From Octopus vulgaris (taxonomy: Eukaryota): a DNA stretch of 64,000 nucleotides. Below are positions 1,061-59,940 of this stretch, in pieces (the stretch's first letter is position 1; every line of letters begins with the position of its first letter). The position numbers were made by a program, and so were the translations under genes. Under the pieces are notes generated by a model. The model did not search any database. It was not told the DNA's origin and worked only from the letters and a program-made list of their open reading frames with translations. The stretch spans positions 12,028,001-12,092,000 of the forward strand of contig OX597825.1 in the NCBI GenBank assembly GCA_951406725.2, in the 5' to 3' direction.

Positions 1061-1447
1061 AAGGTACAAGCCCCAACATTTTTGGAAAGGGGACCAGTCA
1101 ATTTGATCGACCCCAGTACGCAACTAGTATTTAATTTATCGACCCAGAAAGGATGAAAAGCAAAGTCGACCTCGGCGGAATTTGAACTCCGAACATAACG
1201 GCAGAGGAAATAGCTATTTCTTTACTACCCATAAGGGGCTAAACAGAGAGAAGACAGACAAGAACAGACAAACGGATTAAGTCGATTATATCGACCCTAT
1301 TGCTTAACTGATACTTAATTTATCGACCCCAAAAGGATGAAAGGCAAAGTCGACCTCGCCGGAATTTGAACTCAGAACGTAGCGGCAGACGAAATATGGC
1401 TAAGCATTTCGTCCGGCGTGCTAACGATTCTGCCAGCTCGCCGCCTT
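1061..1447 (-). mobile_element. SINE family A (tRNA-headed), tandem dimer
   Basis: Minus strand reads GGCGGCGAGCTGGCAGAATCGTTAGCACG (A-box-like), GAGTTCAAATTCC (B-box-like), then GTCGACTTTGCCTTTCATCCTTTTGGGGTCGATAAATTAAG. The body repeats after a junction at 1207-1220. More than 10 related copies occur in the window. The central block resembles the Meta/MESC-type SINE domain from memory (unverified). Confidence 0.9.
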
Positions 1448-17454: not shown

Positions 17455-17691
17455 TAAGGTGGCGAGCTGGCAGTATCGTTAGCACTCCGGGCGAAATGCT
17501 TAGCAGTATTTCGTCTGTCGCTATGTTCTGAGTTCAAATTCCGCCGAGGTTGACTTTGCCTTTTATCCTTTCGGGGTCGATTAAATAAGTACCAGTTAGG
17601 CACTGGGGTCGATATAATCGACTTAATCCGTTTGTCTGTCCTTGTTTGTCCTCTCTGTGTTTAGCCCCTTGTGGGTAGTAAAAGAATAGAT
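17455..17691 (+). mobile_element. Full-length SINE family A monomer with TSD
   Basis: Complete head to ...GTGGGTAGTAAAAGAATAG tail; flanked by TGTCATGACA at 17445-17454 and 17692-17701. Confidence 0.95.
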
Positions 17692-27829: not shown

Positions 27830-28661
27830 CACCCTCTTACACCATCTGCAGGACCACGTGATGGAAGATCCGAGCAAGGAATTACGGGCTTTGGGGAGAA
27901 AGATGGGTGTTGGAATCGTCAATGTGCAGCTGGCTGGATCTGAATGAAAACCTTCGATGCAACTAGTTCTAGGTGCAAAGGACACATTCTGACAGCCCAG
28001 GCCTAGGAGACCCGCAAAACGAAGGCAAAGAAGCTCCTGAAGAAGCTGAAGCATCCCATAGCCCCCCGGGACCATCTGGTTCTTCTCCGATGAATAGAAC
28101 TCCTGCCAGAACCAGTCGCACTACGTCCAGAGCAAGATGCAGACTGCCTATAATTACCATCCATGTAATGTCCCTCGCAACACGAAAACCAAGTTCCTCC
28201 AAAGTGTGATAGCCGTTGGGTATTTCTTCAGTTAGTGTGAAGTCATGCTGCACAACATTTTTGAACCTAGATTTTGGCTCAATTCAGGTGCTCATGTTTA
28301 GACGCAGGACCCTGTGGTCGGAGAGGATTGCTGTTTAAACGCCACTTGTATAGCACCAGGTTTCTGCTCCCTGGTATACAACTGGAAAGTGTCAGACGTG
28401 GTTGTCGAAGAATTTCTGAGACTTCAACCAAACCCTATTTCTGGGCTTCTAACTCCTTCCTATGATAATCGCAAGTGTTACTATATTGGGGTGCAGTTGA
28501 AAGGTACCAACCGCTTTGTCTGCAACAACATGACTGAGTTGATGGCCAAAATCAAGGATACGTTTAAGGACCATCCCGGGAATACAAACAGGAACGCAAG
28601 CGCCAGGTTGCGGAGCCGTCTTGAAGCATTGGTGAAAGTTGAGTGTGACTACATTGAGTAA
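27830..28661 (+). pseudogene. Decayed Tc1/mariner transposase, maT (DD37D)-like
   Basis: Across stops and frameshifts: KGHILT..KAKKLLKKLKHP / GTIWFFSDE*N / VPRNTKTKF.QSV / HQVSAPWYTT.KCQTWLSKNF (QQDSAPCHT equivalent) / FWASNS (WPPNSPD equivalent) / WGAVE / RLRSRLEALVKVECDYIE*. TIRs not found. Confidence 0.88.
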
Positions 28662-30953: not shown

Positions 30954-31328
30954 AGGCACAGGGCCTGAAATTTGTTGGGTAGGGACTAGTCGATTACATC
31001 GACCCCAGTGTTTCACTGGTACTTAATTTATCGATCCTGAAAAGATGAAAGGCAAAGTCCACCTCAGCGCAATTTGAAACAAGAACAAAATACCTATTTC
31101 CTTACTACCCACAAGGGGCTAAACACAGAGAGAACAAACAAGGACAGACAAACGGATTAAGTCGATTATATCAACCCCGGTGAGTAACTGGTACTTATTT
31201 AATCGACCCCGAAAGGATAAAAGGCAAAGTCGACCTCGGCAGAATTTGAACTCAGAACGTAGCGGCAGACGAAATACTGCTAAGGATTTCACCCGGCGTG
31301 CTAATGTTCCTACCAACTCGCCGCCTTC
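30954..31328 (-). mobile_element. SINE family A tandem dimer
   Basis: Head ends near 31326; junction AAAATACCTATTTC at 31087-31100; second unit ends in the GGCACAGGGCCTGAAATTT-type tail. Confidence 0.9.
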
Positions 31329-34748: not shown

Positions 34749-34837
34749 TTTCGGTACAATTGTTTCGTACGAAGACAGCTTTATTAAGGCTGCAAATATT
34801 GCAGTAAATATAAGTGACCCGTAATCATCAGCCGAAA
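34749..34837 (-). ncRNA. Type I hammerhead ribozyme, long stem II variant (one mismatch at 10.1-11.1)
   Basis: UUUCGG-CUGAUGA-U UACG...CGUA C-GAAA-CAAUUG-UA-CCGAAA: 6-bp stem I, canonical core, stem III palindrome ACAAUUGU, GUA triplet. Confidence 0.85.
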
Positions 34838-34973
34838 AAACAGCATATAGATTTCTGGTGCATCTAAGTTAAGTACCGCATTCATGTGAATTCAACAGAA
34901 CTCATTTGAATCTTAATTGCTTCTACTATATATATATATGTATATATACATATATATACATATATATGTAGAA

Positions 34974-35042
<69 letters not shown>

Positions 35043-35210
35043 TAATTATATCTAAAATATATAATTCTAATGCAAGTTAGTTGGAAAAAGTACCAACATG
35101 TTAGAAATAGAAGTCGAAAACATACTAAACCAACTATATAACTCTGTTCCACAAATGCGTGGAAACGAGCAAAATAATTTAGAGTACCTTAAACAGATAA
35201 ATAGATAATC

Positions 35211-35266
35211 TCTCATATCGATCGATTTCAGGATCTGTAATTAATACTTAACCCTCATCAGTGAGA
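35211..35266 (-). ncRNA. Type I hammerhead ribozyme
   Basis: UCUCA-CUGAUGA-GGGUU AA GUA UUAAU UAC AG AUCCU-GAAA-UCGAUCGA-UA-UGAGA: 5-bp stem I, canonical core, G-U at 10.1-11.1, stem III palindrome AUCGAUCGAU, AUA triplet. Confidence 0.85.
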
Positions 35267-36655
35267 TTCACCATAATTAGTGAAGGGTACTTGGAAAAAA
35301 CTACTAACATGCTACTTAGCCGTTAAAGTATGGCCAAAGATTATTTTGCCCGTTCCTGGCAGTCACCTTGCGCAATAGAGTGAAATAGGTGGTTTAGAGT
35401 TTTTTGAGTCCTGTTTCTGGCAAGGTGGTACTTTTGTCCCATGTACCCTCCATTGTAATTATATATTTTATATGCAATTATAAATCTATATTAATTTTTA
35501 GCTCTATGTATTTTTAAAAATGTTATTCTGGCCACTGATATTATTATTTTATAATGATAACTTTACCCTTTCATATATATGGATATTTATGTGTGTGTCT
35601 GTATTTATGGCGGAAACTGAAAGAAGTCCATCGTATATATATATATATATATATATAGTTCAGCAAAATTTAGATTCAGATGAATATGTTACTTAAGGCA
35701 AATGCACCACAATGAAATCAACCTCTCTGTCTGTATATCTACCATCTTTGTAATGTTGGCAAACGAAATAGAGATAAGAATGCGCATTGTCCGTTTAATT
35801 GAAGAATTTCTATAAGTGGTTGAAGATTGCTCGACATTTTAAAACTGGTGTAATACTTACAGTGTTTAATAAAATGAAGTGGCATGAAACGCTCGTACTA
35901 CATTACCTCGGATATACTTGTTGCTTATTTTGATTATATATATATCCTCTGCGTTACTCATTCTACAAATTTATCCCTCTGTCTATCTACCTATACATAT
36001 ATAGACATATTTAGATATATTTTGTTATAAACATATGGAAACTGATTCCCATACAAATATACATAAACAATATACGTTTGTATATATGTTTGTATGTGTA
36101 TATGCATACCAGCAAACATACACAAATGTATGTGTGGGTCCATCTGAAAGCATATTGTATTTTTATTCTTTATATTTTGCATTGTAATCCAGGCTCCTAT
36201 GATATTTGTTTAGTTTGTTTTCACTTAACGCTAGGAATTTCAGGACGCACTAAATGAGATCTATTGATCCAAGCACGAAGATTCCATTACAAATGAGAAA
36301 CATGTTTTTAGTAATAAGTTCAATGTATTTCTATATTAATAAATCATAATTGAGTCAGTGTTGATTTCAAGAATAAAAAAGTATCTTCATCTTTCATATT
36401 TTATTCATGTATTATTCCGTATGAGGTTTGGCTCGATCTGGCATTATCGTACGTTCAAAAAATATTTCAATTTAGCTAATGGATATTTTCATATAAACTA
36501 TTTGATGATTTATATGGCCTATATACTGTTTTTACATTTTGTCAATATCTTGTGGTGAGTATAAGCGTTTCCCGGGAATATGACACTCTGAGTTGGTTTC
36601 GATTCCTGTATCATTCTAATATATTTCATTTACTCCAATAATGTTTTTGTAAAAT

Positions 36656-59858: not shown

Positions 59859-59940
59859 CCTACTGAAGAGTACAAATTCGACCTTTATGATGTTCTCTTT
59901 ATGAAAATCTTGGTTCTTTTGTACGAAACAATTGTCTGGG
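59859..59940 (+). ncRNA. Intact type I hammerhead ribozyme, long stem II variant
   Basis: CCUA-CUGAAGA-GUACAAA..GACC...GGUU..UUUGUAC-GAAA-CAAUUG-UC-UGGG: all core residues canonical, G10.1-C11.1, 7-bp stem II, stem III palindrome ACAAUUGU, GUC triplet, 4-bp stem I with one G-U. Confidence 0.9.

What the first reader, a model, noticed from the sequence alone, without database searches (positions are those of the whole stretch)
35211..35266. Third hammerhead with a 10-nt palindromic stem III and AUA cleavage site
Seen on minus: stem I UCUCA/UGAGA, CUGAUGA (35261-35255), an interrupted stem II, GAAA, AUCGAUCGAU, and predicted cleavage between 35216 and 35215. The G10.1-U11.1 wobble is explicable as CpG decay of C11.1-G12. 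Inference: the longer stem III could fold as a monomer (3 bp plus 4-nt loop) as well as a dimer. It is unrelated in sequence to the ACAAUUGU family, so it is a separate lineage.
Basis: partly seen in the sequence, partly recalled or inferred. Interest (0 to 1): 0.75.

Follow-up and report, generated by a model that had tools for sequence, protein, structure and literature searches.

The report
Decayed hammerhead in old retrozyme-like repeat
This is a real hammerhead-ribozyme motif inside one old, mutated copy of a small non-coding repeat that was likely spread by Penelope-type jumping-gene enzymes; its ancestor likely cut itself as a pair of RNAs, this copy is predicted to misfold, and the kind is already known.

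Summary
The motif is present as described: 1 hit in the window, 0 in 300 shuffles. It lies in a dispersed non-coding repeat (unit inferred about 500 nt; 47 matches). 16 of 39 loci carry an inverted 5'-truncated arm, the Penelope-type footprint; no linked ORF was found.

The CpG-decay idea fails for this family: 11.1-12 reads UG in 17 of 20 copies, CG in 1, CA in 0, while palindrome CpGs survive in 25 of 40 cells. U.U is the commonest 10.1.11.1 state, and G.U marks this copy's subfamily. Stem III favours the dimer (-12.6 versus +1.1 kcal/mol).

This copy is damaged: U.U replaces the family C-G in stem II, and an extra GA lets stem I slip. A likely orthologue breaks a stem II pair. Cleavage is untested.

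U.U at the base of stem II and 10-bp palindromic dimers are in print (PMC3088659, PMC7229834). The scan already reported younger retrozymes on other DNA of this genome. Verdict: new member of a known kind, probably a relic.

The parts
35211..35266 (-). Type I hammerhead motif: stem I UCUCA/UGAGA, core CUGAUGA, stem II, GAA, palindromic stem III, A17; predicted cut 35216/35215
   Evidence: Sequence; descriptor scan and shuffles
35230..35254 (-). Stem II: G10.1.U11.1 (inherited in the subfamily), G-C, G-C, U.U (family C-G; decayed here), U-A, 2x2 loop, distal GUA/UAC (GCA/UGC in another subfamily)
   Evidence: Alignment A2 and counts; tree
35217..35226 (-). 10-nt palindrome AUCGAUCGAU, predicted to form a 10-bp intermolecular stem III
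   Evidence: Sequence; duplex -12.6 versus hairpin +1.1 kcal/mol
35207..35215 (-). 3' strand of stem I with an extra GA seen in no other aligned copy; allows a slipped register (AAUCUC/GAGAUU) that leaves the core unclosed
   Evidence: 1 of 20 rows in A2; MFE; register energies -3.9 versus -4.3
35036..35281 (-). Direct arm: 5'-truncated copy of the repeat, carrying the hammerhead and ending at a (TC)n/(TA)n tract
35316..35590 (+). Inverted 5'-truncated arm (family positions about +60 to +330 from C3), with a longer 3' tail than the direct arm; 73.8% identical to the direct arm over 149 columns; outer end approximate
35279..35324 (-). Short direct duplicate of the repeat's 3' segment at the junction of the two arms
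   Evidence: nhmmer hit (E 9e-4); blastn
34925..35035 (.). (TC)n/(TA)n microsatellite at the 3' end of the direct arm; a (TA)n tract also lies beyond the other arm near 35635-35660
   Evidence: Sequence

Best explanation
This is a hammerhead motif in an old, decayed copy of a non-coding repeat that was likely pasted in by Penelope-like (PLE) enzymes; the source RNA likely cut itself after AUA as a double hammerhead, and this copy is predicted to be largely inactive. Steps: (1) shown: the motif is part of a dispersed family with conserved stems, fixed 3' ends and variable 5' ends; (2) inferred: the source was a tandem of roughly 500-nt units without an ORF, in which two hammerheads pair through the palindrome (and swap stem I strands) and release a monomer; (3) inferred from the footprint: a PLE reverse transcriptase/GIY-YIG endonuclease copied it into TA-rich microsatellites, leaving a direct arm and an inverted 5'-truncated arm; (4) shown: the copy has since lost a stem II pair and gained GA in stem I; (5) predicted: it misfolds and has no same-family hammerhead next to it.
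For: Family: 18, 47 and 45 matches (lower bounds; some matches are microsatellite only); the 17 other matches are 75-87% identical. Structure: 81.2% of 377 cells paired (1 of 500 shuffles as high; 25.8-50.4% when slid), U-A to C-G change in 5 of 20 copies at the distal stem II pair. Footprint: inverted upstream arm in 16 of 39 loci, as described for PLEs in PMC8557442. Unit: direct partial tandem in L195 with period about 510 nt once a 516-nt piece with terminal inverted repeats is subtracted; L173, of another family with the same stem III, holds two hammerhead units 460 nt apart with no ORF between. Dimer: cofolding two copies gives the 10-bp stem III and gains 10.6 kcal/mol. Decay: arms 73.8% identical; end branch 0.12; P(10.2-11.2) 0.09 against 1.0 for the column-majority sequence; core intact in only 9 of 20 copies; likely orthologue in organism F has G10.3 changed to A.
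Against: No cleavage data. No PLE ORF joined in sense to this family within the stretches fetched, so the mobilising enzyme is inferred. Covariation is modest: pairs with a change on both sides 5, reached by 242 of 500 shuffles. This copy keeps all 11 core bases and a perfect palindrome, and core columns are somewhat better kept than others (15 of 220 versus 101 of 900 mismatches, p 0.063; biased, because the window copy was the first query). No tandem with two complete hammerheads was seen in this family itself.
Confidence: 0.75

Rival explanations
1. The repeat is the 3' end (pLTR) of an autonomous PLE whose copies are so 5'-truncated and old that the ORF is not seen; the hammerhead worked the same way.
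For: PLEs carry type I hammerheads with small palindromic helix III in their pLTRs, mostly as single truncated motifs (PMC4209133). The genome is rich in PLE fragments (7535 first-look candidates; RVT_1 and GIY-YIG hits). One family copy abuts a PLE ORF fragment head to head (L051).
Against: Relatives of that ORF fragment continue into a different 3' region with a different hammerhead. Upstream similarity among copies stops near -200 to -230, at microsatellite or an inverted arm. The L195 tandem has no ORF between units.
Confidence: 0.15
2. This copy is still an active ribozyme, as monomer or trans dimer, possibly kept by the host.
For: All 11 core bases, A17 and the palindrome are intact. U.U or weak pairs at the base of stem II are compatible with cleavage (PMC3088659; PMC7229834). 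A contig of organism E shows no listed change in the motif.
Against: The hammerhead fold lies 11 kcal/mol above the MFE (-2.7 versus -13.8); stems I and II slip in the monomer and dimer MFE; the likely orthologue in organism F breaks a stem II pair.
Confidence: 0.08
3. Chance resemblance to a hammerhead.
For: No Rfam hit; folding z-score -0.03.
Against: 0 hits in 300 shuffles; conserved family; 32 genome hits to the core-plus-palindrome pattern against 1 for the control, most with their own complementary stem I.
Confidence: 0.02

Closest known systems
Metazoan non-LTR retrozymes (Cervera and de la Pena 2020, PMC7229834, passages read; Li et al. 2026, 10.64898/2026.07.22.740005, parts 1-3 of 5 read)
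   Same: Non-coding unit with one type I hammerhead; dispersed monomers and tandems; proposed PLE mobilisation; axolotl HHR_Amex2 (about 60,000 copies) also has U.U at the base of helix II and cleaves better as a dimer.
   Different: Unit about 500 nt against 170-400 nt for the invertebrate circles in the 2020 paper (51-972 bp in the 2026 survey); longer stem II and 10-nt palindrome; family old and decayed; no full two-hammerhead tandem seen in this family; expression, circles and cleavage not shown.
Hammerheads in PLE pseudo-LTRs (Cervera and de la Pena 2014, PMC4209133, parts 1-2 of 4 read; Craig et al. 2021, PMC8557442, passages read)
   Same: Type I topology, palindromic helix III, dimer-type action, enlarged helix II, inverted 5'-truncated arm, unequal tails, TA-microsatellite sites.
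   Different: No RT/GIY-YIG ORF linked. PLE minimal hammerheads have a conserved G10.1-C11.1 with an extra base before it; here the first position is U.U or G.U and no extra base is needed.
Repeat-type hammerheads and U10.1-U11.1 variant (Perreault et al. 2011, PMC3088659, passages and legends read; supplementary figures not seen)
   Same: Aedes hammerhead whose loop III gives a 10-bp stem in the dimer (Fig. S8 legend); stem II starting with U10.1-U11.1.
   Different: Here 10.1.11.1 varies across several families (U.U, G.U, U.C, A.A, G-C) that share one stem III.

Membership tests
Type I hammerhead ribozyme | Core C3 U4 G5 A6 N7 G8 A9, G12 A13 A14, A15.1-U16.1, H17 | tested here: met
Type I hammerhead ribozyme | Stems I, II, III closing the core, open end at stem I | tested here: met
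   5, 3 and 5 (dimer) contiguous pairs; family support; predicted to slip in this copy
Type I hammerhead ribozyme | Canonical G10.1-C11.1 pair (common, not absolute: U.U variants are published) | tested here: not met
   G.U here; U.U 10, G.U 7, U-A 2, A.C 1 of 20; precedent
Type I hammerhead ribozyme | Rfam model match at gathering score | tested here: not met
   0 matches in the window
Type I hammerhead ribozyme | Self-cleavage 3' of H17 | not testable with these tools
   No assay; no raw RNA reads offered
Non-LTR retrozyme | Non-coding unit of a few hundred bases with a type I hammerhead | tested here: met
   no complex ORF over the element
Non-LTR retrozyme | Head-to-tail tandem with a hammerhead in each unit | tested here: inconclusive
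   Partial tandem in L195 and possibly L200; full two-motif tandem only in L173 of another family
Non-LTR retrozyme | Expression as linear and circular monomer RNA | not testable with these tools
   No RNA holder listed; only contigs laid
Autonomous Penelope-like element | RT plus GIY-YIG ORF joined to the repeat | tested here: not met
   tblastn of 5-6 natural PLE frames against 44 long stretches and the window found no sense-linked ORF at the unit's 5' end; only two PLE types served as queries
Autonomous Penelope-like element | Inverted 5'-truncated arm, unequal tails, microsatellite sites | tested here: met
   16 of 39 loci; window arms

The most novel reading that the evidence does not exclude
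The copy belongs to a radiation of at least five hammerhead repeat families that keep one 10-nt stem III, AUCG(A/U)UCGAU-A, while swapping stems I and II, and in which position 10.1.11.1, normally G-C, has become free (U.U, G.U, U.C, A.A, possibly C.C). If all were active in their source elements, a long dimer-made stem III would buy release from the G10.1-C11.1 rule, and these families would be a natural series for testing it.
Probability: 0.2. Interest if true: 0.55.

Novelty: new member of a known kind. Interest (0 to 1): 0.22.

Why it matters
Little for this locus: it is a fossil of a known class. Two points have some use. A wobble at 10.1.11.1 should not be read as CpG decay without the family; here it most likely came from U.U. 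And descriptors that demand a pair next to the core (as in PMC3088659's filter) would drop most of these families, so counts of animal hammerheads are likely too low. The family series offers ready constructs to test which first pairs of stem II support cleavage in a dimer.

Tried and rejected
Rfam at gathering score: nothing. PLE ORF next to L012/L051: real (relatives hit RVT_1 and GIY-YIG) but in the opposite orientation and of a family whose relatives end in another hammerhead; rejected as the parent. Other PLE-like fragments near L183, L171, L052, L182, L056, L172 are distant, opposite or downstream, and were not linked. A composite element with the ACAAUUGU hammerhead 430 nt downstream: rejected, as only 5 of the 165 loci other than copies of the window's own place hold that word (I did not map those 5) and the two stems III are not complementary. 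Cross-family cleavage through the shared palindrome: rejected by reasoning, since the double hammerhead also exchanges stem I strands and stems I differ between families. CpG decay at 11.1 in this family: rejected. Expression: no RNA holder listed; the two RNA-guess runs laid have no cover of the motif, which is no evidence either way. A covariance model was built but the genome could not be searched with it, so copy numbers are lower bounds. Lunse et al. 2017 on dimeric PLE hammerheads is not held; I saw nothing of it, and it may already describe such variants. Rows left out of A2 (20 rows): L108 (wrong coordinates), L046 and L047 (cut within the motif) from A1; L009, L054, the second L035 copy and L114 (deletions in the motif); L109, L119 (partial); all copies truncated 3' of the core; L136 (found later). 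L013 and L113 were left out of the tree because their downstream part is not family sequence. Supplementary files of the papers were not read and may bear on precedent for the 10.1.11.1 states.

Full report
Observation. The minus strand reads UCUCA (35266-35262), CUGAUGA (35261-35255), a 25-nt stem II domain (35254-35230), GAA, AUCGAUCGAU (35226-35217), A17 (35216) and UGAGA (35215-35211). A descriptor asking for stems of 5, 3 and 5 pairs matches once in the window and never in 300 block-wise dinucleotide shuffles of the 53,717 non-microsatellite bases; a looser one (4, 3, 2) matches 3 times against 0.013 per shuffle. Rfam finds nothing at gathering score, and the stretch folds no better than shuffles (z -0.03). 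The window lies in a 2.8-Gb, microsatellite-rich genome; earlier scan notes call it an octopus, which I did not check.

It is part of a repeat. Searches of the own genome gave 18, 47 and 45 matches (lower bounds, partly overlapping, some microsatellite only). Matches share 3' ends and differ at 5' ends. Similarity runs from about 200-230 nt upstream of C3 to about 230 or 330 nt downstream. In the window the direct arm spans 35281-35036, an inverted 5'-truncated arm spans about 35316-35590, a short duplicate sits at the junction (35324-35279), and microsatellites lie at both outer ends. An inverted upstream arm is seen in 16 of 39 family loci. Craig et al. describe this layout, with unequal tails and microsatellite bias, for Penelope-like elements (PMC8557442, passages).

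No ORF is linked. One copy abuts a PLE fragment head to head (L051). Relatives of that fragment hit RVT_1 and GIY-YIG but run on into another 3' region and another hammerhead. tblastn of natural PLE frames against 44 long stretches and the window showed no ORF leading in sense into the unit; only two PLE types were used as queries, so a remote parent could be missed. In L195 a direct 3' piece precedes a full copy; subtracting a 516-nt piece with terminal inverted repeats gives a period near 510 nt. L173, from a family with the same stem III, has two hammerhead units 460 nt apart behind an inverted arm, with no ORF. I therefore read the source as a non-coding tandem unit, that is retrozyme-like (inference).

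The family structure. In 20 aligned copies with a complete motif (omitted rows are listed under Tried and rejected), 81.2% of 377 cells pair (1 of 500 shuffles as high; 25.8-50.4% when slid). The distal stem II pair is U-A in 12 and C-G in 5 copies. Other measures are weaker: cells with two-sided change 11 (8 of 500), covariation score 17 of 500, pairs with two-sided change 5 (242 of 500). The tool warns that relatedness alone can beat such shuffles, so this is support, not proof.

The wobble is not CpG decay in this family. Positions 11.1-12 read UG in 17, AG in 2, CG in 1 and CA in 0 of 20 copies, while the two CpGs of the palindrome are kept in 25 of 40 cells and decay both ways (Fisher p 1.7e-5). 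The 10.1.11.1 states are U.U 10, G.U 7, U-A 2, A.C 1. In a tree of 33 rows the window copy falls in a six-member clade (98/94) that is all G.U; the neighbouring group of six (88/75, weakly supported) is all U10.1, and three of four outer families are mostly U.U (midpoint root, trait columns not removed). U.U to G.U is the simplest path (inference). A deeper C11.1 ancestor is not excluded: one family has G-C in 3 of 4 copies and G.U in the fourth, which does look like CpG decay.

A wider group. The pattern core plus AUYGWUYRAU-A gave 32 genome hits against 1 for the reversed control. Besides this family, five sequence groups appear, each with its own stem I: GUCAUA/UAUGAC (7 copies with L020), CUCUG/CAGAG (4), UUCAA/UUGAA (2), and two looser pairs (L146/L162, L152/L158), in which one member has a 6-bp stem I and the other 1 or 3 pairs. 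Their first stem II position is U.U in 8, U.C or C.U in 3, G-C in 3, G.U in 1, A.A in 2 of 17. Six hits look like chance (L140, L142, L144, L149 and two identical to L149), three are unplaced singles (L137, L161, L164). A profile of this family hits members of three of these groups (E 7.7e-13 to 3.2e-4) but not the other two, so common origin is shown only in part.

Monomer or dimer. The 3-bp hairpin with a 4-nt loop costs +1.1 kcal/mol; the homoduplex gains 12.6; P(15.1-16.1) as monomer is 0.08; cofolding two copies forms the 10-bp stem III and gains 10.6 kcal/mol. The dimer is the likely working form. This agrees with the PLE and retrozyme literature (PMC4209133, parts 1-2 of 4; PMC7229834, passages; review PMC6765202, passages).

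This copy is decayed. It has U.U where most copies have C-G (10.4-11.4) and an extra GA in the 3' strand of stem I, seen in 1 of 20 rows. The slipped stem I register is as stable as the right one (-4.3 versus -3.9) and P(10.2-11.2) is 0.09 against 1.0 for the column-majority sequence. The two arms, which I assume were identical when inserted, are now 73.8% alike. A 499-nt contig of organism F spans both arms with 19 differences and one gap, so it is likely the orthologue; the one listed change that I could assign to it inside the motif turns G10.3 into A (five rows of that table were not shown). A contig of organism E has 2 differences, both outside the motif. Against decay: this copy keeps the whole core; 9 of 20 copies do, against 5.4 expected, and core columns vary less than others (p 0.063), but the set was seeded with this copy.

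What is known. U10.1-U11.1 at the base of stem II and a 10-bp dimeric stem III from a palindromic loop are in Perreault et al. 2011 (PMC3088659, passages and legends). About 60,000 axolotl retrozyme hammerheads have U.U there and cleave better as dimers. Li et al. 2026 argue that animal retrozymes are non-autonomous PLE derivatives, and found cleavage in only 1 of 9 dimers tested (parts 1-3 of 5). Searches for G10.1/U11.1 wording and for hammerhead plus octopus plus Penelope found no description of this family or of a free 10.1.11.1 series, but most subscription papers, Lunse et al. 2017 among them, were not searchable. Earlier scan notes report several younger retrozymes with the same footprint on other DNA of this genome; none matched this sequence. 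They are unchecked notes, not support.

Verdict. A real hammerhead motif, a new member of a known kind, most likely an inactive relic (confidence 0.75). Interest 0.22. The most novel reading, a family series freed from the G10.1-C11.1 rule by a long dimeric stem III, has probability about 0.2 and would deserve 0.55.

Noticed in passing
window 34749-34837, minus: A second hammerhead motif (stem III ACAAUUGU, A17, 6-bp stem I) 430 nt downstream on the same strand; its first stem II position is U.C, followed by four pairs. Unrelated in sequence to this family.
   Followed up: partly
window 59859-59940, plus: Third motif (CUGAAGA, long stem II starting G-C, ACAAUUGU, C17). It shares only an 18-nt match with the 34831 motif, so calling the two one family is thin.
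   Followed up: partly
L138-L163, L020: Five further repeat groups share the AUCG(A/U)UCGAU stem III with different stems I and II, mostly non-canonical 10.1.11.1, and several show inverted arms or partial tandems.
   Followed up: partly
L061, L076, L091 and other loci: Abundant decayed PLE fragments with a Cys-rich stretch before the GIY-YIG domain (a feature PMC8557442 gives for Neptune and Nematis); their 3' ends carry a hammerhead-like motif with a short GC-rich stem III.
   Followed up: partly
L006/L007 (G000:C16:38338284-38339420): Two full family copies head to head, 86.8% identical, with another repeat inserted between them.
   Followed up: partly
window 28302-28661 plus and 27969-28283 minus: Two complex open frames (119 and 104 aa) that may be exons or mobile-element remnants; no Pfam hit.
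   Followed up: partly
window 1214-1447, 17456-17689, 31094-31327: Three 234-nt dispersed repeats, 89-91% alike in inverted pairs; SINE-like by recall only.
   Followed up: no
L172 6353-6817 plus; L178 (opposite strand to the motif): A 155-aa frame resembling a PLE endonuclease end by recall, without Pfam support, lies 430 nt downstream of a hammerhead; L178 holds an 813-aa open frame that looks like a LINE reverse transcriptase by recall.
   Followed up: partly
window 52332, minus: Loose hammerhead-descriptor hit with weak stems II and III; probably chance.
   Followed up: no
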